From a virus (Duplodnaviria; Heunggongvirae; Uroviricota; Caudoviricetes), in IMG/VR virus record IMGVR_UViG_2695420685_000020: 9,272 nt of DNA; one strand, given 5' to 3'. The translations under genes were made by a program, and so were the position numbers. How positions within the stretch are numbered: position 1 is the stretch's first letter; each line of letters begins with the position of its first letter. The notes beneath the pieces are model-generated. The model did not search any database and was not told where the DNA came from. It was given only the letters and a program-made list of their open reading frames with translations. This document shows, one piece after another, positions 1-9,272 of this stretch.

Positions 1-49
1 CCCCGTCAGTAGCTGAACAGGAGGGACAGCTGATAGAAACAGAAGCCAC
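1..49 (-). CDS. insA: insA of IS1, 5' end only (partial, continues past left edge); apparent GTG start at 49
   Basis: Minus-strand reading from 49 gives GTG GCT TCT GTT TCT ATC AGC TGT CCC TCC TGT TCA GCT ACT GAC GGG = (M)ASVSISCPSCSATDG, the InsA N-terminus as I recall it, preceded by GAGGTG. Confidence 0.55.
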   Translation of the reverse strand, partial: MASVSISCPSCSATDG

Positions 50-104
50 TGGAGCACCTCAAAAACACCATCATACACTAAATCAGTAAGTTGGCAGCAT
101 CACC
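1..104 (-). mobile_element. IS1 insertion sequence, terminal 104 bp (element continues past the left edge); 23-bp terminal inverted repeat at 82-104
   Basis: Reverse complement of 82-104 is GGTGATGCTGCCAACTTACTGAT, the IS1 left terminal inverted repeat as I recall it; the whole of 1-104 matches my recollection of the IS1 left end including the start of insA. The match stops exactly at 104, where gluconokinase coding sequence begins. Confidence 0.75.
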
Positions 105-353
105 GATGGCGACTATGAAACTATTCTCGCGCGAATGCAGCGTCGGGCTGGGCATTTTATGCCGGTAGCGTTACTAAAAAGTCAGTTTGAGGCACTGGAG
201 CGTCCACAAGCAGATGAACAGGATATTGTGCGCATTGATATCAACCATGATATTGCCAATGTCACCGAACAATGTCGGCAGGCTGTGCTGGCGATACGAC
301 AAAACAGAATATGTGCGAAAGAGGGCAGCGCCTCAGATCAGCGCTGCGAATGA
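105..353 (+). pseudogene. idnK: 3' fragment of a gluconokinase gene (IdnK/GntK family), apparently truncated by the IS1 insertion
   Basis: ORF track 135-353 (72 aa) plus in-frame upstream codons from 105 (DGDYETILARMQ...) resemble the gluconokinase C-terminus (LLKSQFEALERPQADE... compare GntK LLVSQFETLQEPGADE). The frame hits TAA at 87-89 inside the IS1 end, so no P-loop N-terminus is present in this window. Position next to ahr and leuX fits idnK. Confidence 0.6.
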
Positions 354-356
354 TTT

Positions 357-1376
357 TCAATAATCGGCTTTCAACACCACGCGGTAACGCGCCTTACCGT
401 CGCGCACATGCTGGATGGCGTCGTTAATTTTCGACATCGGGAACAGTTCGGTGGTCGGCGCAACCTTGCTGCGGGCGGCAAAACGCATCAGCTTACGCAG
501 CTCATAAGGCGTGCCGGTAGCAGAACCAGAGACGCTGCGATCGCCCGCAATTAACGTAAAGGCCGGAACAGACAGCGGCGTGAGAACCGCACCGACCGTA
601 TGGAAATTACCGCCATAGGTCAGCGCCTCAAAATAGGGCTGCCAGTCGAGGCTGACGTTGACGGTGTTGATAATGAGATCAAACTGCCCCGCCAGTGCTT
701 TCAGTGCCTGCGGATCGCGGCTATTCACCACTTTATCGGCACCCATCGCCAGCACTTCCTGCTCTTTCGCCGGATTAGAACTAAAGGCTGTCACCTCGCA
801 TCCCATTGCGTGCAGAAGTTTTATAGCGATATGCCCCAGCCCGCCAATACCAATTACCCCAACGCGGCTGGTAGCAGTGATATGGTGCATCAACAGTGGT
901 TTAAAGACCGTGATACCGCCGCACAACAGCGGCCCGGCGGACTCGATATCAATATTTTCTGGCAGTGGAATCACCCATTGCCAGTCCGCACGCAACTTCT
1001 CGGCAAAGCCACCGCGATTCATAATCGTCGGCACCGCACCTTGCTCGCAGTTGATCTGATTACCGCTAATACAGGCGTCGCAGTGACCACAGCTACGCGC
1101 CGTCCAGCCAATCCCGACACGCTGACCGACCTGCAAACCTTTATCCTGCGCGGCGCTCCCGAGTGCCACCACGCGCCCAATCACCTCATGCCCGGCAACC
1201 AGCGGATATTGTGAAAATCCCCATTCGTTATCGATCATCGACAGATCGGAATGGCAGATCCCGCAGTAATCCACCTGCACTTCAACATCTTGTGGCCTCA
1301 GCTCACCGGGATCGTACTCATAAACTTCCAGTTCTCCGCCCGCTTCTTTTGCGGCATAGCTTTTTATCATCGACAT
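357..1376 (-). CDS. ahr: Zn-dependent NADPH aldehyde reductase Ahr (YjgB), medium-chain dehydrogenase/reductase family, 339 aa
   Basis: ORF track 357-1418 minus. Likely true start is ATG at 1376 (MSMIKSY...) with AGAAGGA Shine-Dalgarno upstream. Zn/ADH motifs present: CGICHSD, GHEVIG, CGHCDAC, and Rossmann GIGGLGH. Stop TGA at 357-359, 3 nt from the convergent idnK stop. Confidence 0.9.
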
Positions 1377-1513
1377 TTTTTGGTCCTTCTCTGGTGTTGT
1401 TTGGGAAGTGTAGAGCATGGCAGGGCGGGGTGCCTGGAGTGTGACAAAGGTTACACATCGCTGTATGCAATGCTGAAAATTTCAGCACTTAGCGAGGTGC
1501 GAGCAAGCTGGCG

Positions 1514-1542
1514 CTTGCATGGTGGCGTGCGACAGGTATAAT
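1514..1542 (+). promoter_or_regulatory. Candidate sigma70 promoter for leuX (-35 CTTGCA/TTGCAT, -10 TATAAT at 1537-1542)
   Basis: Perfect TATAAT hexamer with TTGCAT 16 nt upstream (or CTTGCA at 17 nt), about 30 nt upstream of the mature tRNA 5' end at 1572. Confidence 0.45.
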
Positions 1543-1571
1543 CCACAACGTTTTCCGCATACCTCTTCAGT

Positions 1572-1656
1572 GCCGAAGTGGCGAAATCGGTAGACGCAGT
1601 TGATTCAAAATCAACCGTAGAAATACGTGCCGGTTCGAGTCCGGCCTTCGGCACCA
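1572..1656 (+). tRNA. leuX: tRNA-Leu (anticodon CAA), 85 nt with long variable arm and encoded CCA
   Basis: GCCGAAGTGGCGAAATCGGTAGACGCAGTTGATTCAAAATCAACCGTAGAAATACGTGCCGGTTCGAGTCCGGCCTTCGGCACCA: acceptor stem GCCGAAG/CTTCGGC, anticodon loop TTCAAAA (CAA), T-arm GGTTCGAGTCC. Confidence 0.92.
1637..1656. other. Probable attL core region (3' end of leuX) of the integrated P4-like element; exact core boundaries not determinable
   Basis: Inference only: P4-family integrases integrate into the 3' end of tRNA genes and an integrase gene starts about 150 bp downstream. The matching attR copy would lie beyond the window. Confidence 0.3.
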
Positions 1657-1768
1657 TTATTACTTCCAAGTCCATCCGAGTAAGTCCGATTATCCATTAA
1701 AAATCAATACTTTCAGCGATTTCTACGATCCTGGATCGTCCGAGGTTGTCCGTTGAAATCCGGATGTC

Positions 1769-1791
1769 ATTGGGGGCATAATTGGGGGCAT
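1769..1791 (+). repeat. Tandem 11-bp direct repeat ATTGGGGGCAT x2 (1769-1779 and 1781-1791) just upstream of int
   Basis: Seen directly: cATTGGGGGCATaATTGGGGGCATc. Function unknown; position between the attachment region and the int start suggests an integrase arm-type or regulatory site. Confidence 0.5.
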
Positions 1792-1808
1792 CTTAACTTC
1801 GATTAGAA

Positions 1809-3095
1809 ATGTGCCCCCAAATGAAGCTCAATGCTAGACAAGTCGAGACAGCAAAGCCAAAAGACAAAAGCTACAAAATGGCCGATGGCGGCGGTTTGTA
1901 TCTCGAGGTTTCGGCCAAGGGGTCTAAATACTGGCGCATGAAATACCGACGCCCCTCTGACAAAAAAGAGGATCGCCTCGCTTTTGGTGTTTGGCCGACC
2001 GTGACGCTTGCTGAAGCTAGAAAGAGGAGGGATGAAGCGAAAAAGTTGCTGGCGCAAGGTATAGATCCAAAAGCAGTACAGAAAGAGGCTCAAGCAGAGA
2101 ATGCTGGTGCTTATAATTTTGAAACTATTGCTCGTGAATGGCACGCCAGCAACAAACGTTGGAGTGAGGATCATCGGGCGCGTGTTCTTCGCTATCTAGA
2201 GCTGTATATCTTTCCTTATATTGGCTTGTCTGATATCCGACAGCTTAAAACTAGCCATCTTTTAGCACCGATAAAAAAAGTTGATGCCAGTGGTAAGCAT
2301 GATGTGGCGCAGCGTCTTCAGCAACGTGTTACTGCTATTATGCGCTATGCCGTACAGAACGATTATATAGATTCAAATCCTGCAAGTGATATGGCTGGTG
2401 CGTTATCGACAGCTAAAACGCGGCACTATCCAGCTCTACCATCACATCGTTTTCCTGAGTTCTTAGCACGTCTTGCTGCATATCGTGGTCGTATGATGAC
2501 GAAAATTGCGGTTGAACTTTCTTTATTAACATTTGTTCGTTCCAGTGAGCTACGTTTCGCTCGCTGGGATGAATTCGACTTCGATAAATCTCTATGGCGT
2601 ATACCTGCAAAACGCGAGGAAATTAAAGGCGTACGTTACTCATATAGAGGAATGAAGATGAAGGAAGAGCATCTCGTTCCACTTAGTAGGCAAGCGATAG
2701 GGTTGTTGGAGCAGTTAAAGCAGATTAGTGGTGATAAGACGCTGCTTTTCCCTGGGGATCATGACGCAACTAAGGTTATGAGTGAGAACACTGTTAATAA
2801 TGCATTGCGTGCGATGGGCTATGATACGAAAACAGAAGTTTGCGGACATGGTTTTAGGACAATGGCACGTGGTGCGTTAGGAGAGTCAGGATTATGGAGT
2901 GATGATGCTATTGAACGCCAATTGAGCCATTCGGAACGTAATAATGTGCGAGCTGCGTATATTCATACGTCTGAGCATTTAGATGAGCGCAGACTAATGG
3001 TCCAATGGTGGGCAGATTATCTTTATTCCAACAGAGAGAAGCATATCTCTGCTTTTGAATTTGCAAATAAACTTAATAAAAATAGCCTTGATTAA
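1809..3095 (+). CDS. int: P4-family tyrosine integrase (site-specific recombinase), 428 aa (alternative ATG start at 1821)
   Basis: ORF track 1809-3095. N-terminal arm-binding-type region (AKPKDKSYKMADGGGLYLEV), C-terminal catalytic region with HGFRTMARGAL (H-x-x-R) and RAAYIH (catalytic Tyr). Located directly downstream of a tRNA gene. Confidence 0.9.
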   Translation: MCPQMKLNARQVETAKPKDKSYKMADGGGLYLEVSAKGSKYWRMKYRRPSDKKEDRLAFGVWPTVTLAEARKRRDEAKKLLAQGIDPKAVQKEAQAENAGAYNFETIAREWHASNKRWSEDHRARVLRYLELYIFPYIGLSDIRQLKTSHLLAPIKKVDASGKHDVAQRLQQRVTAIMRYAVQNDYIDSNPASDMAGALSTAKTRHYPALPSHRFPEFLARLAAYRGRMMTKIAVELSLLTFVRSSELRFARWDEFDFDKSLWRIPAKREEIKGVRYSYRGMKMKEEHLVPLSRQAIGLLEQLKQISGDKTLLFPGDHDATKVMSENTVNNALRAMGYDTKTEVCGHGFRTMARGALGESGLWSDDAIERQLSHSERNNVRAAYIHTSEHLDERRLMVQWWADYLYSNREKHISAFEFANKLNKNSLD

Positions 3096-3172
3096 GTCTC
3101 CGCTTAGTTTGAACTAGCCTTCATCAACAGCAATGCTTGTGTCTTTTTAACCTTCACTTAACACCTTCTTAG

Positions 3173-3213
3173 GCAATTATTCCATTGCTTTTAAAAACTA
3201 AGTATTCCTTAGT
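3173..3213. promoter_or_regulatory. Two palindromic operator candidates (C-boxes) upstream of the controller gene: GCAAT-N6-ATTGC (3173-3188) and CTAAG-N5-CTTAG (3198-3212)
   Basis: Seen directly: GCAATtattccATTGC and aCTAAGtattcCTTAGt. Both carry a TATTCC centre and sit 50-90 bp upstream of the C-gene ATG at 3263. From memory, CTAAG-N5-CTTAG is the reported C.EcoO109I binding site. Confidence 0.55.
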
Positions 3214-3262
3214 AATTTCGAGTGTAAAAAGTGCAAACCTACCTCCAAAAAGAGGATTTTCG

Positions 3263-3568
3263 ATGCTTCCAATTAGGTTAAAAAAAGCCCGATTGAATGC
3301 TGGGTTAACTCAAGAACAGCTGGGAATACTTGTTGGCATTGATGAATGCTCTGCCAGTGCTCGCATGAATCAATATGAGAAAGGTAAACATATGCCCGAT
3401 TTTTCACTTACTAAAAAAATCGCTGATTTATTAAATGTCCCTGTCTCATATTTTTACACACCCGAAGATGACTTGGCAGAAATTATTTTGTTGATTAATA
3501 AACTAGACAAAAAACAGCGGTTAATTTTATTAAAAAATTTATCAGATGGATTTATAAGTCATGAATAA
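3263..3568 (+). CDS. Controller (C) protein of an R-M system, XRE-family helix-turn-helix regulator, 101 aa
   Basis: ORF track 3185-3568 begins at a TTG; the internal ATG at 3263 has an AGAGGA Shine-Dalgarno 6 nt upstream (3251-3256). HTH segment LTQEQLGILVGIDECSASARMNQYEKGK. Stop overlaps the start of the next ORF, and palindromic operators lie upstream. Confidence 0.8.
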   Translation: MLPIRLKKARLNAGLTQEQLGILVGIDECSASARMNQYEKGKHMPDFSLTKKIADLLNVPVSYFYTPEDDLAEIILLINKLDKKQRLILLKNLSDGFISHE

Positions 3569-4379
3569 GCAAGAAGTTATACTTAAAGTGCAGGAGTGTG
3601 CTGCGTGGTGGATTTTGGAGAGACAAAGTAAACTAACAAAGTTAATGTCAGAAACAATGTCCATAAATCCGTTTATGACCCCTTTTATTTTTGATTATCA
3701 TTCCCTTAATGATTTTGATGAACTAGTTGAAGCAATAATTGCTAAGCATTTAATGACTGGGCATGATACTGGCTTTGGAAAATTGATTGATGAAAAAATA
3801 CTTCCTAGAGTGTTTGGTGCATATAAATTAGATAAAAGTTATAGAGCTGCCAACGAGCCTTTTATACACCCTTGCTTTGATGAAATAGATCATGTAATAC
3901 AAAGGGATGATGGTAGAATTGAGCTTTTATCTCTTAAGGCAGGGAAATGGACTATTCAATTGACGATGGCTGTCCAACTAAATAAAGCATTTCACGAAAT
4001 CATAAATAATTATCCTGGAGTGGCTGACAATATAGTGGTTGGGGTTTTTTATGGAAATAGCCATGGATTAACTGATAAGTATAGAATCTTACGAGGTATC
4101 AATACTGGTGCAAACCACAATGTGATTGATATTCGTGACAAAGTGCATGTATATGCTGGTAAAGAATTTTGGTCATGGCTTAACAATGGTGAGGCTGAAA
4201 CCCAGCATTGGGTACTTGAAGGTATAGAACGTGCTGTAAAAGAAGCAGATATAAAAGAAAAAAATAAAGATCTTATTGAAAAATTCAAAGAACATGTTGC
4301 AAAGAAGTACAATGAGCAAGTTCTAAATGCTGATGGCACAGCTCAATGGCACAAATTACTTGAAATGATTAATGAATAA
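3561..4379 (+). CDS. Type II restriction endonuclease candidate, 272 aa (possibly EcoO109I-type)
   Basis: ORF track 3561-4379. ATG overlaps the C-gene stop by 8 nt (ATGAATAA). Lies between a C-protein gene and a convergent m5C methyltransferase gene. Contains a plausible PD-(D/E)xK-like segment (FDEIDHV...IELLSLK). Length agrees with my recollection of R.EcoO109I (272 aa). No direct homology check was possible. Confidence 0.7.
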   Translation: MNKQEVILKVQECAAWWILERQSKLTKLMSETMSINPFMTPFIFDYHSLNDFDELVEAIIAKHLMTGHDTGFGKLIDEKILPRVFGAYKLDKSYRAANEPFIHPCFDEIDHVIQRDDGRIELLSLKAGKWTIQLTMAVQLNKAFHEIINNYPGVADNIVVGVFYGNSHGLTDKYRILRGINTGANHNVIDIRDKVHVYAGKEFWSWLNNGEAETQHWVLEGIERAVKEADIKEKNKDLIEKFKEHVAKKYNEQVLNADGTAQWHKLLEMINE

Positions 4380-4407
4380 AAAACTGGCCTAAGGGCCAGT
4401 TTTTTTT
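4378..4407. terminator. Bidirectional intrinsic terminator between the convergent R and M genes
   Basis: AAAAACTGGCC-taag-GGCCAGTTTTTTTT: 7-bp GC-rich stem (4383-4389 / 4394-4400), 4-nt loop, A-tract on the left and T-tract on the right, located in the 38-bp gap between the two stop codons. Confidence 0.65.
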
Positions 4408-4417
4408 ATGACTAATT

Positions 4418-5671
4418 CTAAACTTCTTCTTCAAGGTCGTAGTAAGAAACATCTCCACTATATGCTTGACCATTTTTAAAGAAAGATCTGGTTCTAATAT
4501 GCGGTCTAATATGGGTTTCTATATAATCTGGAGTTACTAAATCAGCAACCTTATTTTCTTGTATACGATGAAGAAGTTCCATAGCAGCTTCCCCTGCAAC
4601 TTTACCTAACCGGACAGGAACTGCGTTACCTATCTGTCTGAATTTTTCTGTAGTTGTACCTTCAAATTTCCAGTAATCAGGAAACTCTTGTATCGCGGCA
4701 GCTTCACCAACAGAAATAGCTCTAAGTTCAGTTGGGTGGCACATACTTGTTCCCGCATGATTTGGCATTGTTACTACTGTGGGTGAAGGAAACTGGAAAG
4801 ATAGTTTCCTCCAGTAAGCACTTCTTCCTCCTTTAAGATACCAGCTTTTTCCCATAGATTCTTTTTGCATTTCTTCTGGCATGCTTCTCCAGTTTCCGCC
4901 AGGTGGAACCATTGAAAGATATTTCAGTTTTCTTGGCGAAAAATTCATGACTTCTGGATATTTATCAACAAAACCGCTCTCTGGGCCAATTACATCCCCC
5001 AGCGTTTTGAATGGCGGAAGATTATCTTCTACTCTATTGCTGAATAAAGGGGAGGCGAAATTGGCTATCATTCCGAAGCGATTACCAATTAAAATAACAC
5101 GCTCCCTAATTTGTGGGGCTCCATAGTTGGCAGCATTAACTACAAAGCAATCCACATGATAACCTAGTTTATTGAATTCGTTAGCTACCCTTTTTATTAG
5201 AGAGCCTTTTTCGAAAGCAGATGCTGCGATTGTGCCTGATAGCTCCTTCTTTTTAGAAGCTGGAACTATAGACATTGATAATAAACCGCGTACGTTTTCC
5301 ATTACGAAAACTTTTGGGTTTAATTCTTTAATCATTCGAACATATTCGAAAATAAGCTGCCCTCTGGCATCTTCTAGCCCTAACCTATTTCCAAAAACAC
5401 TAAATGCTTGGCACGGTGGACCGCCAGCAACTAAATCTATTTCTTCTTTATCATTCACTCCGGCTAGTGCTAATAATTCAGAGCCAGTGCAGTCAACAAT
5501 ACTACCTTCGAATACAGCAAGATTTGGCTTATTAGTTTTAATTGTTTTTAGAGCTGCCTTATCTTGTTCAACGCAAGCTACGAGCTCAAAGCCAGCCTCT
5601 TCGAGACCTAAGTCTAACCCCATTGCGCCACTAAATAGCGAAATAAACTTTTTACTAGACAAAATAATCAC
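4418..5671 (-). CDS. DNA (cytosine-5) methyltransferase, Type II modification enzyme, about 414-417 aa (start codon uncertain: GTG at 5671 or TTG at 5662)
   Basis: ORF track 4418-5671 minus. Canonical m5C-MTase motifs: I FSGAMGLDLG, IV GGPPCQAFS, VI ENVRGL, VIII QIRERV, X GNAVPV. No ATG at the N-terminus; AGGTGA lies upstream of the TTG at 5662. Confidence 0.9.
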   Translation of the reverse strand: MIILSSKKFISLFSGAMGLDLGLEEAGFELVACVEQDKAALKTIKTNKPNLAVFEGSIVDCTGSELLALAGVNDKEEIDLVAGGPPCQAFSVFGNRLGLEDARGQLIFEYVRMIKELNPKVFVMENVRGLLSMSIVPASKKKELSGTIAASAFEKGSLIKRVANEFNKLGYHVDCFVVNAANYGAPQIRERVILIGNRFGMIANFASPLFSNRVEDNLPPFKTLGDVIGPESGFVDKYPEVMNFSPRKLKYLSMVPPGGNWRSMPEEMQKESMGKSWYLKGGRSAYWRKLSFQFPSPTVVTMPNHAGTSMCHPTELRAISVGEAAAIQEFPDYWKFEGTTTEKFRQIGNAVPVRLGKVAGEAAMELLHRIQENKVADLVTPDYIETHIRPHIRTRSFFKNGQAYSGDVSYYDLEEEV

Positions 5672-5804
5672 CTACATACTTAGCAGCCAAATACTAGGAT
5701 ATTGTAAAGGATTAACACTAATCCTCAACTCAAGTTTCAGGGATCTTAGCAGAATCTGCTTTGCAAGGATTCTATGAATGTAAATTAATAGATACTGGCG
5801 CGCA

Positions 5805-5823
5805 GTGCTTTCCCCGCCTCGCC
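5805..5823. other. cos site: 19-nt cohesive-end sequence of P2/P4-type phages (reverse complement of GGCGAGGCGGGGAAAGCAC)
   Basis: Exact 19/19 match at 5805-5823 (GTGCTTTCCCCGCCTCGCC) to the P2/186/P4 cohesive-end sequence as I recall it, located immediately downstream of psu where P4 carries cos. Confidence 0.7.
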
Positions 5824-5923
5824 CGCCCGCTTTGTGGGATGGTTTTAATGCAGTTGCGCTGACACGCTCAGGCCACGCCGGGCGTGGCGCGATCTGCAGA
5901 AAATGAGGCAGGAAAACGCATGC

Positions 5924-5956
5924 AAAGCCATGCACCTTATCGATGCATGGCTTTTT
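5924..5956 (+). terminator. Stem-loop with 3' T-run (AAAGCCATGCA-ccttatcga-TGCATGGCTTTTT); possible terminator or cos-region structure
   Basis: 11-bp perfect inverted repeat, 9-nt loop, followed by TT. Sits between cos and the psu stop. Function and strand uncertain. Confidence 0.3.
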
Positions 5957-5987
5957 CCAGTAAAAACGGGCGGATTTTCGGGGAATT

Positions 5988-6560
5988 TTACACAGACTGA
6001 CGTGATGCCAGTTGCGCACTTTTACGCGAAAAAATCATGTTCTGCGCAGGGGTGAATTTTTCACGGCTGTCATCCACCGAAGCCGCGTCAGGCCTGAATC
6101 CGATGGTCGTAAAAATGTCGCTATCCTGTGCGGAATAATTAATTTTTTCCCCCTTCGCAAGCCAGGAAAGAAGGGCTTCACGCAGGGCATCTGTGGCACG
6201 CTGTATGGCACAGTTTCGGGCAATGGCCGTCAGCTCACTGTAGCCCATCAGCTCCGGTGCCAGTGCCGCCGCCAGTGCTGTGCCGTGCTGCTGCATAAAA
6301 TCATTCAGCCGGTCGCGGATGCTGATGTGCTGAACGGCTTCATGCGAACGAATATAACGACCGGCGGTCTGATTCACCTGCCATTTTCTGACTTCGATAA
6401 TATTGCGTAATTCGTCAAGGCGACTGACGTTTCTGCCTTCTCCTGACAGAAGCCGCAGATATTCCTGTTCGGCCGCTGCCAGCTCATTTTTGCGTTGCAG
6501 CCATGCTGCTTTGTTATTCTGGCAGACCTCAAAAGCCTGCTGTAATGACATTGTGGTCAC
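5988..6560 (-). CDS. psu: Psu (polarity suppression / Rho-antagonist capsid decoration protein) of P4-type satellites, 190 aa with GTG start (alternative ATG at 6551)
   Basis: ORF track 5988-6560 minus. N-terminus xTTMSLQQAFEVCQNNKAAWLQRKNELAAAEQEYLRL closely resembles P4 Psu as I recall it (same 190-aa length). AGGAGA Shine-Dalgarno 7 nt upstream of the GTG. Confidence 0.88.
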   Translation of the reverse strand: MTTMSLQQAFEVCQNNKAAWLQRKNELAAAEQEYLRLLSGEGRNVSRLDELRNIIEVRKWQVNQTAGRYIRSHEAVQHISIRDRLNDFMQQHGTALAAALAPELMGYSELTAIARNCAIQRATDALREALLSWLAKGEKINYSAQDSDIFTTIGFRPDAASVDDSREKFTPAQNMIFSRKSAQLASRQSV

Positions 6561-6574
6561 ACCCCGTCTCCTGA

Positions 6575-6820
6575 TTAATGGTTGAATGGTGAGCTGTAAC
6601 AGCCTTTAACTTTTCGGACAACAGCCGGTGCTGTGCTTGCCGGTGCTGGTTTTTCCTCCGTGACCGGAGAACGAATCACGGCACAAATTGACTCATGCGT
6701 TTTAAATGTCGCCGAACAGTAAATATTCTGGCACTGCAGATAACTTTCTTTGACATTGTCACTCACATACCGGCTGGTGCGGGTATGCGCTGAATGACGA
6801 CAGAAAGGGCAGCGCATCAT
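6575..6820 (-). CDS. Ogr/Delta-family zinc-finger late-gene transcriptional activator, 81 aa, single domain
   Basis: ORF track 6575-6877; true start likely ATG at 6820 (MMRCPFCRHSAHTRTSRY...), overlapping the sid stop as ATGA. Cys4 pattern CPFC...CQNIYC as in P2 Ogr (MFHCPLCQHAAHARTSRY...). Confidence 0.85.
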   Translation of the reverse strand: MMRCPFCRHSAHTRTSRYVSDNVKESYLQCQNIYCSATFKTHESICAVIRSPVTEEKPAPASTAPAVVRKVKGCYSSPFNH

Positions 6821-7551
6821 GACAGCAGTCCTCTGGCCTTCAGCTCTGCTCCCTGCTGGTCCATTTTGTCCTGCCACACCTTGCGCTGTGCCGGTGTGCC
6901 TGCCACCTCATAATCCATGTGCGGGAGTGTTGCCGCTGACAGTCCGGCCAGCCGGAGAACCGGCTCACCGCTGAGGCTGATTTGCATCTGTTTAATTTTC
7001 TGCTCCAGCGATGATTTCACCTGCTGCATGACAGCCCTTTCCGGTGCGACGTAACCCTGATGGCCGGTGGTGTTGGCGAGCGGATTTTCCTGTACCAGAA
7101 TGCTCAGATGCATTGCCCGGACAAGCGCCTCACAGGTTTCATTCAGGGCGTGTTCCAGCTCATGCTCTGCATACAGACTCAGAAGGTGATGATGTGCCTT
7201 CCGGTAGGCGGTGGCCGTGCTGTCACACGCCCCTTTCAGGCGTTCGCGTTCAAAATTCAGCACCACGGCCAGATTGTCATATTCCTGTACCAGCTCCCGG
7301 CGTGCCACGCGCTCAATGTGGCGCTGTTTCAGCTCGTCGCTCAGGACACCACCGGCTGCACGAAAGGCCGTGCGCCAGTCGTCAGCGTCGTTTCCGTCGG
7401 CTTGCGCCAGCGCATTTTTTTCCTGCTCTGCCCGTTCAATGGCCGTGACGGTCTCATCCATCAGGCGGGCGTTCTCAAGATGAGCGACTCTGGCCTTTTC
7501 CAGTTGTGCCAGCGCGGGTTGCAGATATTCAGGGATGGTGTTGTCAGACAT
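6817..7551 (-). CDS. sid: Sid (capsid size determination, external scaffold) protein of P4-type satellites, 244 aa
   Basis: ORF track 6817-7569. ATG at 7551 (MSDNTIPEYLQPALAQLEKAR...) has a GAGGA Shine-Dalgarno 8 nt upstream and gives 244 aa, the length I recall for P4 Sid. Gene order sid-delta-psu matches P4. Confidence 0.85.
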   Translation of the reverse strand: MSDNTIPEYLQPALAQLEKARVAHLENARLMDETVTAIERAEQEKNALAQADGNDADDWRTAFRAAGGVLSDELKQRHIERVARRELVQEYDNLAVVLNFERERLKGACDSTATAYRKAHHHLLSLYAEHELEHALNETCEALVRAMHLSILVQENPLANTTGHQGYVAPERAVMQQVKSSLEQKIKQMQISLSGEPVLRLAGLSAATLPHMDYEVAGTPAQRKVWQDKMDQQGAELKARGLLS

Positions 7552-7623
7552 TTTCCGGCTCCTCGTCACTTCAGGTTAAGAAAATTGTGACGTACACCGG
7601 ACAACAACACGACGCATTGCAGA

Positions 7624-7641
7624 TGTGCCAGCCCTGACACA
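7624..7641. promoter_or_regulatory. Delta/Ogr-type activator dyad TGT-N12-ACA upstream of sid (candidate Psid activator site)
   Basis: TGTgccagccctgacACA at 7624-7641. Centre is about 80 bp upstream of the sid ATG, compatible with an activator site centred near -55 and a 20-30 nt leader. A second dyad, TGTgacgtacaccggACA, lies at 7586-7603. Confidence 0.45.
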
Positions 7642-7720
7642 GGAGACTCATCCTCAGACCGGCAAGCCAGGAAAAGGTCGCAGGAAAAACCGGCTTACTG
7701 TTTGTTTTTTTATATTTTAC

Positions 7721-7824
7721 TGTTCACCTCTGTTCACCTTAATAAAAAAGATAAGTAATACAGTAAATTAAATGGTGAACAATCGCAGTAATGACTGTTC
7801 ACCGTCTGTTCACCACTGTTCACC
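7721..7824. repeat. Iteron cluster of the octamer TGTTCACC (crr-like cis replication region / alpha primase binding sites)
   Basis: Direct copies at 7721-7728, 7731-7738, 7796-7803, 7807-7814, 7817-7824 and one inverted copy GGTGAACA at 7774-7781. TGTTCACC is the type I iteron of P4 ori/crr as I recall it. Located between sid and vis. Confidence 0.65.
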
Positions 7825-7982
7825 CGTTCATGGACTTTTTGTGCTGTTTATTACTTTTTATTTTTATTAATTAACTGAAATAAATAAGAAAAAACAATTT
7901 GTATTTCACTATAATTTTTTCCAGCTCCTTCCAGAGCGTTTTAAAGCCATCTGGCGCTGATGTACAAAAAATACACAGCCAT

Positions 7983-8000
7983 TGTAAGACTGCCGGAACA
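7983..8000. promoter_or_regulatory. Delta/Ogr-type dyad TGT-N12-ACA upstream of vis (candidate late-left promoter activator site)
   Basis: TGTaagactgccggaACA at 7983-8000, about 110 bp upstream of the vis ATG. Confidence 0.4.
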
Positions 8001-8102
8001 AATCCCCCCTGTTGCGTCTGCCGAAAATATTCACAAAATAAAGCGCTACCCGAAGCCGGACGGACTTATCCGGTGCTGTATGGACATTAACGAGGTAGCC
8101 CG

Positions 8103-8369
8103 ATGCAAGCTGTTTTTTCTTCCCCGTCTCCCGCCCCTGTGACGCCACTGATGCCGCTGCCGGACATCACACAGGAGCGTTTTCTACGTCTTCCGGAAGT
8201 GATGCACCTGTGCGGCCTGTCACGCTCGACCATCTACGAACTCATCCGTAAGGGGGAATTTCCGCCGCAGGTGAGTCTTGGCGGTAAAAATGTGGCCTGG
8301 CTGCACTCTGAAGTCACCGCATGGATGGCCGGGCGCATTGCCGGACGCAAACGGGGGTACGACGCATGA
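8103..8369 (+). CDS. vis: Vis/AlpA-family small DNA-binding regulator (P4 Vis-like), 88 aa
   Basis: ORF track 8103-8369. ATG with GAGGT 7 nt upstream. AlpA-type HTH segment [45 protein letters not shown]. Length equals P4 orf88 (vis) as I recall it. Confidence 0.8.
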
Positions 8370-8404
8370 TGATGCCCGCTCTGCAAAAACTCCCTTTTTC
8401 TGGC

Positions 8405-8434
8405 TTGCCTTTTTCCGGCATTTGCGGATATAGT
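8405..8434 (+). promoter_or_regulatory. Candidate sigma70 promoter (TTGCCT-N18-TATAGT) for the immunity/left operon (PLE-like)
   Basis: -35 TTGCCT at 8405-8410 and -10 TATAGT at 8429-8434, just downstream of vis and upstream of the complementary-box leader. Confidence 0.35.
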
Positions 8435-8465
8435 TTTTCCGCTGCCGCAAAATCGGCAGCCGGGC

Positions 8466-8757
8466 GTGAGAACCCGAGCAATTCACAGGCGACATATGAC
8501 GCGCCACGCGTCTTTTTTTGTGTCGCAATCAATGCCACAGAGCGCCAGATTATGGTGTGGTGTGTGGTCAGTCGTGCAGATGGCATTCCGTGCATCCTGC
8601 CCGCGTCCGCTCATTATGCCGCAGAGTCAATGGTAGCTCAGGCGGGGCAGCCTCCGGGCTGGCCGGTATCCTGTGAAGCCGGTATTCTCACCCCCGTCTG
8701 GGCTATCGCCATCGAGCGTGAGAACTCCGGCGATAGCGTTATTTGCTATTCACAGGA
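8466..8757 (+). ncRNA. Immunity-type leader with CI/c4-like antisense boxes: box A 8466-8489, complementary box B 8669-8691, box C 8718-8757 (overlaps the RBS of the downstream small ORF); RNA boundaries unknown
   Basis: GTGAGAA...TTCACAGG occurs at 8466-8489 and at 8718-8757. Its reverse complement CCTGTGAA...TTCTCAC occurs between them at 8670-8691. Box C ends in AGGAGG, the Shine-Dalgarno of the ORF starting at 8768. Confidence 0.35.
8498..8519 (+). terminator. Intrinsic terminator: GACGCG-cca-CGCGTC followed by T7
   Basis: 6-bp GC stem at 8498-8503 / 8507-8512 with T-run at 8513-8519, about 60-80 nt downstream of the candidate promoter. Confidence 0.5.
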
Positions 8758-8767
8758 GGCTGCCATC

Positions 8768-8965
8768 ATGGCTACAACCCTTACCCCCTCACACCCTGAA
8801 TTTGTCTTTGTGTTTGCGGCTGTCCGTCGCGCAGACCGTCATCCCCGTATCTGTATGCTTCGCACCGTCGCCGGTGATGAACGCAGTGCCCGCCGTTCCC
8901 TTGTCCGTGACTATGTGCTCTCCCTTGCTGCCCGTCTGCCGGTGGTGGAGGTGTCCCGTGCGTAA
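8768..8965 (+). CDS. Small Icd/Kil-like protein (65 aa), first gene after the immunity leader
   Basis: ATG at 8768 with AGGAGG 8 nt upstream ([65 protein letters not shown]). It is the C-terminal part of track ORF 8321-8965, whose upstream portion is the non-coding leader. Family assignment is by position and recollection of P4-like annotations only. Confidence 0.55.
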
Positions 8966-9245
8966 TAAAAAAGCCCCTCAGACCGTCTCAGCACGTCATG
9001 ACGCCCGTGAACACCTCAGCATTGAGGCTTACCATAAGCTCAACCGCGCCAGCGCCGTATCCCAGTTTGTTGGGGGTGATTTGATTCACCGTGAACTCTC
9101 CGGCCTGCATCAGCTCTACATTCCGCATATTTTCAGTTACCTGAATGAAGATATTGATTTTGTGCTGAATGAACTGAAAGCCAAAGGCCTGTGCCGCGAT
9201 TTTCTCGCCCAGCAGAAAGACCGGGGAGACAGGACGCATGTTTGA
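8958..9245 (+). CDS. Hypothetical protein (95 aa) with GTG start overlapping the preceding stop (GTGCGTAA)
   Basis: Open frame to TGA at 9243-9245 with no in-frame ATG. GTG at 8958 is preceded by GGAGGT (8947-8952) at 5-nt spacing. Corresponds to the 3' part of track ORF 8673-9245. Confidence 0.45.
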
Positions 9246-9272
9246 TTTTCCCCAGCCCGGTGAGATTTACCG
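9238..9272 (+). CDS. 5' end of a further ORF ([11 protein letters not shown]...), partial, continues past the right edge
   Basis: ATG at 9238 overlaps the preceding TGA (ATGTTTGA), with GGGGAGA/AGGA upstream. Only 11 codons are visible. Confidence 0.25.
   Translation, partial: MFDFPQPGEIY

What the first reader, a model, noticed from the sequence alone, without database searches (positions are those of the whole stretch)
3173..3213. Paired palindromic operators (C-boxes) with a shared TATTCC centre upstream of the controller gene
GCAAT-tattcc-ATTGC (3173-3188) and CTAAG-tattc-CTTAG (3198-3212) lie 10 bp apart in the promoter region of the C gene. Two adjacent dyads are the typical layout for C-protein autoregulation: a high-affinity activating site and a lower-affinity repressing site that delays endonuclease expression after entering a new host. 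The second dyad matches the C.EcoO109I site as I recall it.
Basis: partly seen in the sequence, partly recalled or inferred. Interest (0 to 1): 0.55.

Follow-up and report, generated by a model that had tools for sequence, protein, structure and literature searches.

The report
One known operator, one chance palindrome
The window is the well-studied EcoO109I restriction-modification system of E. coli: the second palindrome is its already published controller-protein binding site, and the first is most likely a chance palindrome that no related system shares.

Summary
Both palindromes are at the stated coordinates, 9 bp apart rather than 10. The window is the EcoO109I restriction-modification cassette on a P4-like prophage. 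The R ORF is 100% identical to crystallised R.EcoO109I, and the C ORF is about 70% identical to C.Csp231I.

Dyad 2, CTAAG-TATTC-CTTAG (3198-3212), is the published C.EcoO109I operator. It is the only perfect match in the window. It is 13-15/15 identical in every orthologous cassette, and the same motif precedes 76 of 80 related C genes.

Dyad 1, GCAAT-TATTCC-ATTGC (3173-3188), is not a C-box:
- It has 5-6 mismatches in the 10 arm positions and a 6-bp spacer.
- It is at chance frequency (33 such dyads in the window).
- It occurs only in E. coli copies and is 2-5/16 identical in nine orthologous sequences.
- It lies in a segment that is 52-55% identical between orthologues, against 81-90% for the core control region.

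Real paired boxes in this family are two CTAAG-N5-CTTAG copies 33-34 bp start to start. The second site proposed in the literature (3158-3172) is also not conserved, so the EcoO109I type appears to be single-operator.

Verdict: already known, low interest. The paired-operator reading is not supported.

The parts
3198..3212 (.). C.EcoO109I operator (C-box) CTAAG-TATTC-CTTAG. The extended palindrome A-CTAAG...CTTAG-T spans 3197-3213.
   Evidence: It is the only perfect match in the window and is 13-15/15 identical in nine orthologous sequences. The same motif lies upstream of 76 of 80 related C genes. It is published as the C.EcoO109I binding site (Kita 2002, as cited in PMC2795595 and PMC6765115).
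3173..3188 (.). Dyad 1, GCAAT-TATTCC-ATTGC: an E. coli-specific palindrome, most likely chance and not a C-box.
   Evidence: Occurs at chance frequency. It is 2-5/16 identical in orthologues, none of which has a dyad at this position. The pattern is present only in E. coli copies. It has 5 mismatches to the box arms in the best register. As an RNA hairpin it gives -4.9 kcal/mol, z = -1.4.
3158..3172 (.). TTAAC-ACCTT-CTTAG, a box-like site with 2 mismatches, 25 bp upstream of the C-box. Its position matches the 'related palindromic' second operator proposed in the literature.
   Evidence: Found, where the count of sites with up to 2 mismatches in the window equals the chance expectation (3 found, 3.25 expected). 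The 25-bp spacing matches PMC3115060 and PMC4321490. It is not conserved, at 1-6/15 in orthologues. A C/A polymorphism in its centre, at 3164, distinguishes the window from the compared E. coli copies (L125; L109/L122/L123).
3225..3245 (+). Conserved block TAAAAAGTGCAAACCTACCTC downstream of the box. It is a candidate -10 element (AAAAGT, 3227-3232) plus the start of the leader.
   Evidence: It is 15-21/21 identical in orthologues, with conserved spacing to the box. Its function is inferred. The sigma-70 scan finds no consensus promoter on the + strand.
3250..3256 (+). Shine-Dalgarno sequence AAGAGGA, 6 nt before the C start codon.
   Evidence: Read directly from the sequence and conserved in orthologues.
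3263..3568 (+). ecoO109IC, the controller protein (101 aa, HTH).
   Evidence: Matches Pfam HTH_3/HTH_19. E = 1.7e-33 to C.Csp231I, PDB 3lfp. The recognition residues S32, Q37 and H43 are present and invariant in the family alignment. RefSeq annotates the same ORF.
3561..4379 (+). ecoO109IR, the restriction endonuclease (272 aa). Its start overlaps the end of C by 8 nt.
   Evidence: 100% identical over 272 aa to PDB 1wtd EcoO109IR.
4418..5671 (-). ecoO109IM, a C5-cytosine methyltransferase, convergent with C-R.
   Evidence: Pfam DNA_methylase, E = 7e-65. No box-like site lies near its upstream region.

Best explanation
The 3173-3213 interval holds one real regulatory element and one coincidence.

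The real element is the single C.EcoO109I operator, CTAAG-TATTC-CTTAG (3198-3212). A dimer of the helix-turn-helix controller protein encoded just downstream (3263-3568) binds it through residues S32, Q37 and H43, one monomer per CTAAG half-site, and bends the DNA. In this way the protein autoregulates the promoter of the C-R operon. C and R overlap by 8 nt and so are presumably co-transcribed.

The best -10 candidate is the invariant AAAAGT at 3227-3232, inside a strongly conserved block. That would place the box over the -35 region of the promoter.

The upstream palindrome GCAAT-TATTCC-ATTGC (3173-3188) has no operator role. It arose in the E. coli lineage within a fast-evolving, unconstrained stretch between the integrase gene and the operator.

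Shown here: the identity of the system, the uniqueness and conservation of the box, and the non-conservation and chance frequency of dyad 1. Taken from the literature: C binding and bending at the box. Inferred: the promoter position, and therefore whether occupancy activates or represses.
For: Identity of the system: R is 100% identical to PDB 1wtd. C matches C.Csp231I at E = 1.7e-33. The C5 methyltransferase and the P4-type integrase, Psu, Ash and derepression proteins are present. A tRNA-Leu lies beside int.

The box: it is the only perfect site in the window. It is 13-15/15 conserved in the Klebsiella, Cronobacter, Salmonella, metagenome and viral-contig orthologues. It is present even in Salmonella, where the cassette sits in a different genomic context with unrelated upstream DNA. 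The motif lies upstream of 76 of 80 family members. The recognition residues are invariant and are described structurally in PMC4321490. The experimental binding site is quoted in PMC2795595, PMC6765115 and PMC1885659.

Dyad 1: it is at chance frequency. Identity across orthologues is 2-5/16. The pattern occurs only in E. coli copies. The surrounding segment 3096-3192 is 52-55% identical between orthologues, against 81-90% for 3193-3262, 83-89% for the C gene and 78-87% for the 3' end of int. Natural boxes in the family deviate by at most 2 of the 10 arm positions, whereas dyad 1 deviates by 5-6. With the related C.Csp231I, protection mapped to a racR site 1 mismatch from consensus. A second racR site that keeps one perfect half-site with an unrelated second half was not required for that protection (PMC9638921).
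Against: Non-conservation shows that dyad 1 is not needed in other hosts. It cannot exclude a recent E. coli-specific function. The E. coli copies compared are 99.4-99.6% identical, so there is no power to detect selection within the lineage.

Dyad 1 lies exactly 25 bp from the box start and shares its TATTC centre (10/15 identity in register). One relative, L034, has genuine boxes 25 bp apart.

The primary paper (Kita 2002) could not be read, so I could not check whether its footprint extends over 3173-3188.

The promoter is not mapped here. No + strand sigma-70 consensus match was found.
Confidence: 0.85

Rival explanations
1. Dyad 1 is a weak auxiliary C-protein site. It would be a decayed duplicate of the box that is occupied at high C concentration, or cooperatively, giving the two-step switch the first reader proposed.
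For: It starts exactly 25 bp upstream of the box start and shares the TATTC centre, with 10/15 identity in register. One relative, Acinetobacter L034, has three perfect boxes, with 25 bp and 33 bp between successive box starts. Two-operator logic is the norm for C proteins (PMC2632904).
Against: Five of the 10 arm positions are wrong in the 5-N5-5 register and 6 in the other. Natural boxes tolerate at most 2. An identity of at least 10/15 arises by chance with P = 0.14. Dyad 1 is absent from all orthologues. The aligned orthologous sequence is TCATCC/TAATCC-like, so the shared centre looks inherited from non-box DNA rather than duplicated. The flanks show no similarity to the flanks of the box.
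Confidence: 0.05
2. Dyad 1 is neutral in sequence but lies in a length-critical looping spacer. On this reading C dimers bind TTAAC-ACCTT-CTTAG (3158-3172) and the box (3198-3212) and contact each other across the 25-bp spacer, as proposed for C.Csp231I.
For: The literature names a 'related palindromic' second site with a 25-bp spacer (PMC3115060, PMC4321490). The site with 2 mismatches is exactly 25 bp upstream of the box. In Csp231I the spacer length matters but its sequence does not.
Against: The 3158-3172 site is not conserved in any orthologue (1-6/15), and no orthologue has a second site with 2 or fewer mismatches. Sites with up to 2 mismatches occur at the chance rate in the window (3 found, 3.25 expected). 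Real two-box relatives use an 18-19 bp spacer. Even if this reading were true, dyad 1 would still not be an operator.
Confidence: 0.07
3. Dyad 1 is a small intrinsic terminator, or an RNA hairpin, that ends integrase transcription before the C promoter.
For: The hairpin extends to 7 pairs (AGGCAAU/AUUGCUU) and is followed by UUUU. It lies 78 bp after the int stop codon.
Against: The energy is -4.9 kcal/mol with z = -1.4, and 22 of 200 shuffles fold as well. The stem has only two G-C pairs and the U run is only 4 long. The terminator scan does not report it. No orthologue has a hairpin there.
Confidence: 0.03

Closest known systems
C.EcoO109I operator of the EcoO109I R-M system, E. coli H709c (Kita, Tsuda and Nakai, NAR 2002; Sorokin motif 8)
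   Same: Dyad 2 is this element. The sequence CTAAG(N5)CTTAG is the same. It lies upstream of the same C gene, followed by an R gene 100% identical to crystallised R.EcoO109I. The setting, a P4-like prophage next to tRNA-Leu, is also the same.
   Different: There is no real difference. A secondary source quotes the site as 47 bp upstream of the start codon. Here 50 bp separate 3212 from the ATG at 3263. Dyad 1 is not part of the published element.
C.Csp231I OL/OR operators (Citrobacter sp. RFL231; PDB 4jcx, 4jcy, 4jqd)
   Same: The protein clade is the same (about 70% identity, with S32, Q37 and H43 conserved) and the half-sites CTAAG/CTTAG with a 5-bp centre are the same.
   Different: Csp231I has two perfect boxes with an 18-bp spacer. 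OR overlaps the -35 hexamer (CTAAGA), the transcript is leaderless, and R has its own promoter. EcoO109I-type cassettes have one conserved box, a leader with a Shine-Dalgarno sequence, and an R gene that overlaps C.
C.PvuII / C.AhdI / C.Esp1396I two-operator switch (GACT-N3-AGTC x2 with a 4-bp linker)
   Different: The recognition sequence is different. The operators there are adjacent, binding is highly cooperative, and both boxes carry the same motif. Dyad 1 and dyad 2 here do not share a half-site.

Membership tests
C.EcoO109I/C.Csp231I-type C-box (Sorokin motif 8) | Inverted repeat CTAAG-N5-CTTAG (5-bp arms, 5-bp centre), with at most 1-2 arm mismatches in natural sites | tested here: met
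   Dyad 2 (3198-3212) matches perfectly. The range of natural variation comes from 80 loci.
C.EcoO109I/C.Csp231I-type C-box (Sorokin motif 8) | The same sequence criterion applied to dyad 1 (3173-3188) | tested here: not met
   The arms are GCAAT/ATTGC with a 6-bp spacer. There are 5 arm mismatches in register 3173-3187 and 6 in register 3174-3188 (hand count).
C.EcoO109I/C.Csp231I-type C-box (Sorokin motif 8) | Lies upstream of a C gene of this clade that carries the recognition residues S32, Q37 and H43 | tested here: met
   The C ORF 3263-3568 matches C.Csp231I. The residues are present and invariant in a 30-sequence alignment. Their roles are described in PMC4321490.
C.EcoO109I/C.Csp231I-type C-box (Sorokin motif 8) | Conserved at a fixed position in orthologous cassettes | tested here: met
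   This holds for dyad 2: 13-15/15 identity, at -65 to -67 from the ATG in nine orthologous sequences. Dyad 1 fails the same test, with 2-5/16 identity and no dyad in any orthologue.
C.EcoO109I/C.Csp231I-type C-box (Sorokin motif 8) | Specific binding by the cognate C protein | not testable with these tools
   Reported for the 15-bp site by Kita 2002, as quoted in PMC2795595, PMC6765115 and PMC1885659. The primary paper is not held. There are no data for dyad 1.
Two-operator C-protein switch (OL activating, OR repressing) | Two copies of the same palindromic motif at a conserved spacing, with the proximal copy over the -35 element | tested here: not met
   Dyads 1 and 2 have different half-sites. 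Family pairs are 33-34 bp start to start in 30 of 37 cases. No orthologue of the EcoO109I cassette has a second site with 2 or fewer mismatches. No weak downstream copy was found: the best has 5 mismatches.
Rho-independent terminator (for dyad 1) | A stable G+C-rich stem followed by a U tract, folding better than shuffles | tested here: not met
   -4.9 kcal/mol, z = -1.4, two G-C pairs, four U. Not reported by the terminator scan.

The most novel reading that the evidence does not exclude
EcoO109I-type controller systems may run on a single operator, lacking both the second box of Csp231I-type relatives and the upstream second site suggested in the structural literature. The invariant 21-bp block 3225-3245 would then supply the rest of the control logic. 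Under that reading this clade uses a simpler or different autoregulatory circuit than the canonical two-operator C-protein switch. For dyad 1 itself, the only novel option left is a recently acquired E. coli-specific site for a host factor.
Probability: 0.3. Interest if true: 0.3.

Novelty: already known. Interest (0 to 1): 0.1.

Why it matters
It matters little beyond bookkeeping. The functional element flagged here was described biochemically in 2002, and its protein family has crystal structures with DNA.

The useful outcome is negative. The attractive-looking pair of palindromes should not be annotated as paired operators.

There is also a modest by-product. Comparison of orthologous cassettes indicates that neither dyad 1 nor the literature's proposed second EcoO109I operator (25-bp spacer) is conserved. 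The looping model built for C.Csp231I therefore may not transfer to EcoO109I. The real unknown in this control region is the conserved block downstream of the box.

Tried and rejected
- The primary papers (Kita 2002, PMC134244 and its DOI; Kita 1999, PMC94149) are not held. The experimental facts are therefore taken from citing papers.
- The sigma-70 scan of 3000-3600 found no + strand promoter. It found only a chance-level minus-strand match that overlaps the box.
- A metagenome scan and a viral scan for the extended box returned mostly unrelated coding-sequence hits. They added identical or near-identical E. coli copies (one with a 3164 SNP) and one more orthologue, L124.
- Distant searches of E. 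coli genomes and plasmids found no copies of intermediate divergence. Selection on dyad 1 within its own lineage therefore cannot be assessed.
- An SD-sequestering hairpin (CCUC 3242-3245 with GAGG 3252-3255) has only 4 pairs, -1.5 kcal/mol consensus energy and no compensatory changes. I did not pursue it.
- Rfam has no hit in the control region.
- I considered dyad 1 as a duplicated box and rejected it: the flanks are dissimilar, and the orthologous sequence at that position is not box-like.
- I considered dyad 1 as an int terminator and rejected it.

Full report
**What is in the sequence.** Both dyads exist at the stated coordinates: GCAAT-TATTCC-ATTGC at 3173-3188 and CTAAG-TATTC-CTTAG at 3198-3212. 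They are separated by 9 bp (3189-3197), not 10. They lie 90 and 65 bp upstream of the ATG (3263) of a 101-aa helix-turn-helix ORF.

**What the locus is.**
- The ORF after the HTH gene (3561-4379) is 100% identical over all 272 residues to crystallised R.EcoO109I, PDB 1wtd.
- The HTH protein matches C.Csp231I (PDB 3lfp) at E = 1.7e-33.
- A convergent C5-cytosine methyltransferase follows at 4418-5671.
- The flanks are P4-like: tRNA-Leu(CAA) at 1572-1656, a P4-type integrase, then Psu, Ash and derepression proteins, and C4/CI RNA and isrK.
- 69 of 5426 complete E. coli genomes carry the cassette at 99% identity or more.
- RefSeq annotates the same C ORF.

The window is therefore the EcoO109I restriction-modification system itself, and the C gene is ecoO109IC.

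**Dyad 2 is a known element.**
- Citing papers state that Kita et al. (2002) identified the C.EcoO109I recognition sequence as the 15-bp CTAAG(N5)CTTAG upstream of the C start codon, bound presumably as a dimer and bent by about 54 degrees (PMC2795595; PMC6765115; PMC1885659).
- The C.Csp231I-DNA crystal structures show base contacts from S32, Q37 and H43, and note that these residues are identical in C.EcoO109I (PMC4321490). They are present here and invariant in a 30-member alignment.
- In my own survey of 80 genomic loci encoding relatives of the C protein, 76 have at least one perfect CTAAG-N5-CTTAG in the 220 bp upstream.
- It is the only perfect match in the 9.3-kb window.

**Dyad 1 is not significant on its own.**
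- Perfect dyads with 5-bp arms and a 5- or 6-bp spacer occur 33 times in the window, against 20 +/- 4 in shuffles.
- A 167-bp region with this composition contains at least one with P = 0.44.
- The shared-centre argument is also weak. Some 6-mer of the box recurs in the 102 nt upstream with P = 0.43. A 15-mer at least 10/15 identical to the box occurs there with P = 0.14.
- Read as a C-box, dyad 1 has 5 arm mismatches in register 3173-3187 and 6 in register 3174-3188 (hand count), and its own symmetry needs a 6-bp spacer.
- Natural boxes in the 80 loci deviate by at most 2 of the 10 arm positions.
- With the related C.Csp231I, footprint protection in racR mapped to a site 1 mismatch from consensus. 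A second racR site that keeps one perfect half-site with an unrelated second half was not required for that protection (PMC9638921).

**The comparative test is decisive.** I retrieved orthologous C-R-M cassettes with the same layout and C proteins 67-89% identical to the window's. They come from Klebsiella (L081, L082), Cronobacter (L083, L084), Salmonella (L085, L086), metagenomes (L087, L088, L091) and a viral contig (L124). The Salmonella cassettes sit in a different genomic context. Identity to E. coli, anchored on the box, is as follows.

| Segment | Identity to E. coli in orthologues |
|---|---|
| Box, 3198-3212 | 13-15/15 |
| Block 3225-3245 (TAAAAAGTGCAAACCTACCTC) | 15-21/21 |
| Dyad 1, 3173-3188 | 2-5/16 (random level) |

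- The Shine-Dalgarno region is also conserved.
- No orthologue has any dyad at the dyad 1 position.
- GCAAT-N6-ATTGC occurs only in the E. coli copies among 125 loci, plus one unrelated hit inside a coding region.
- In gapped pairwise alignments the segment 3096-3192 is 52-55% identical between orthologues. The core 3193-3262 is 81-90% identical, the C gene 83-89% and the 3' end of int 78-87%. The stretch that holds dyad 1 therefore evolves faster than the surrounding coding DNA.
- In Salmonella the DNA upstream of about 3190 is unrelated, which amounts to a natural deletion of dyad 1.

**The paired-operator layout of this family is different.** Of the 80 loci, 42 have one perfect box, 31 have two, 3 have three and 4 have none. 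Thirty of the 37 adjacent pairs are 33-34 bp start to start, which is an 18-19 bp spacer as in Csp231I. Both members of each such pair are perfect CTAAG-N5-CTTAG sites. Sorokin et al. describe this motif class as a single palindrome with a weaker copy downstream. In the window the best downstream candidate has 5 mismatches.

**The literature's proposed second operator.** The structural papers propose a second, 'related palindromic' EcoO109I operator with a 25-bp spacer (PMC3115060; PMC4321490). That matches TTAAC-ACCTT-CTTAG at 3158-3172, which has 2 mismatches and lies exactly 25 bp upstream. Dyad 1 therefore lies inside what the literature treats as spacer.
- This proposed site is itself not conserved, at 1-6/15 in orthologues.
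- No orthologue has a second site with 2 or fewer mismatches.
- Such sites occur at the chance rate in the window.

EcoO109I-type cassettes thus look like single-operator systems.

**Mechanism.**
- From the literature: a C dimer binds and bends the box.
- Shown here: the box and a downstream block are the only constrained non-coding elements. C and R overlap by 8 nt.
- Inferred: the invariant AAAA(G/A)T at 3227-3232 is the best -10 candidate. It keeps the A at position 2 and the T at position 6, and it sits at a fixed distance from the box. That would start transcription near 3238-3241, include the conserved Shine-Dalgarno sequence in a leader of about 24 nt, and put the box over the -35 region.

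This differs from Csp231I, where the -35 hexamer is the left arm of OR, the transcript is leaderless and R has its own promoter (PMC4824078). The scan found no + strand consensus promoter, and I could not read the primary paper. The sign of regulation at this promoter therefore remains open here. Secondary sources say that inactivating C abolishes R production.

**Rivals for dyad 1.**
- A decayed duplicate box at a 25-bp offset. One relative, L034, has genuine boxes 25 bp apart. However, the similarity is at chance level, and the orthologous sequence at that position is not box-like.
- Neutral sequence inside a length-critical looping spacer. This depends on the non-conserved 3158-3172 site.
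- A weak int terminator. The hairpin gives -4.9 kcal/mol with z = -1.4, has four U after it, and is not conserved.

None of these would make dyad 1 an operator of the kind proposed.

**Verdict.** Half of it is the published C.EcoO109I operator and the other half is most probably a lineage-specific chance palindrome. It is already known and of low interest.

Noticed in passing
window 1-9272: The EcoO109I recognition sequence RGGNCCY does not occur anywhere in the 9.3-kb window, on either strand. Shuffles give 5.7 +/- 2.4 sites, and a Poisson estimate of P(0) is about 0.003. This looks like restriction-site avoidance in the P4-like element that carries the system.
   Followed up: partly
window 3225-3245: The 21-bp block TAAAAAGTGCAAACCTACCTC, 13 bp downstream of the C-box, is 15-21/21 identical in all orthologous cassettes and sits at a fixed distance from the box. 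Apart from the box it is the most constrained non-coding element here. Its function is unknown. It is a candidate -10 element plus transcript start.
   Followed up: partly
window 3158-3172: The position of this site matches the second EcoO109I operator proposed in the structural literature (25-bp spacer). It is not conserved in any orthologous cassette, and a C/A polymorphism in its centre, at 3164, distinguishes the window from the compared E. coli copies.
   Followed up: yes
window 4379-4408: AAAAAACTGGCC-TAAG-GGCCAGTTTTTTTT lies between the convergent R and M genes. It is a perfect 6-bp G+C-rich stem flanked by an A run and a T run, which looks like a bidirectional terminator.
   Followed up: no
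window 3561-3645: RefSeq (strain 7784) annotates the endonuclease as a 244-aa ORF that corresponds to a start at window 3645. The crystallised protein has 272 aa and starts at 3561, overlapping the C stop codon by 8 nt. Gene callers on orthologous contigs are split the same way, between 244 and 272 aa.
   Followed up: no
window 3242-3255: CCUC (3242-3245) can pair with the Shine-Dalgarno GAGG (3252-3255), and the complementarity is kept in orthologues. It is only 4 pairs with no compensatory change, and the consensus energy is -1.5 kcal/mol.
   Followed up: partly
L041:2880-3010: An Ectothiorhodospiraceae relative has two boxes with a covaried half-site, CTACG-N5-CGTAG and CTACG-N5-CATAG. Its C protein carries K in place of R34 in the recognition helix. 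This may be a natural change of specificity.
   Followed up: no
L001-L054 (the enterobacterial group with one box at -73 to -76): About 35 chromosomal loci encode relatives of the C protein whose matches to it cover only 75-80 residues, with one perfect box. At +33 bp, where two-box relatives have the proximal box, they keep only remnants: CTAAG-AGAAT-CCTGT, CTACC-AGAAT-CGTGA or GAGAATCG. This looks like a proximal operator in various stages of decay. Their gene context was not examined.
   Followed up: no
L034 (Acinetobacter sp. ANC 4805) and L024 (Colwellia MAG), upstream of the C homologue: These loci have three perfect CTAAG-N5-CTTAG boxes. The start-to-start distances are 25 + 33 bp in L034 and 27 + 35 bp in L024.
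   Followed up: no
window 2700-3095: Nucleotide similarity to phage P4 int (84%) stops at about window 3020, some 75 bp before the int stop codon. The 3' end of int and everything downstream as far as psu therefore differ from P4. This is where the R-M cassette sits.
   Followed up: no
window 8428-8713: Rfam finds the P4-type immunity RNAs: the c4-a1b1 target (8428-8480), isrK (8441-8518) and C4/CI antisense RNA (8626-8713).
   Followed up: no
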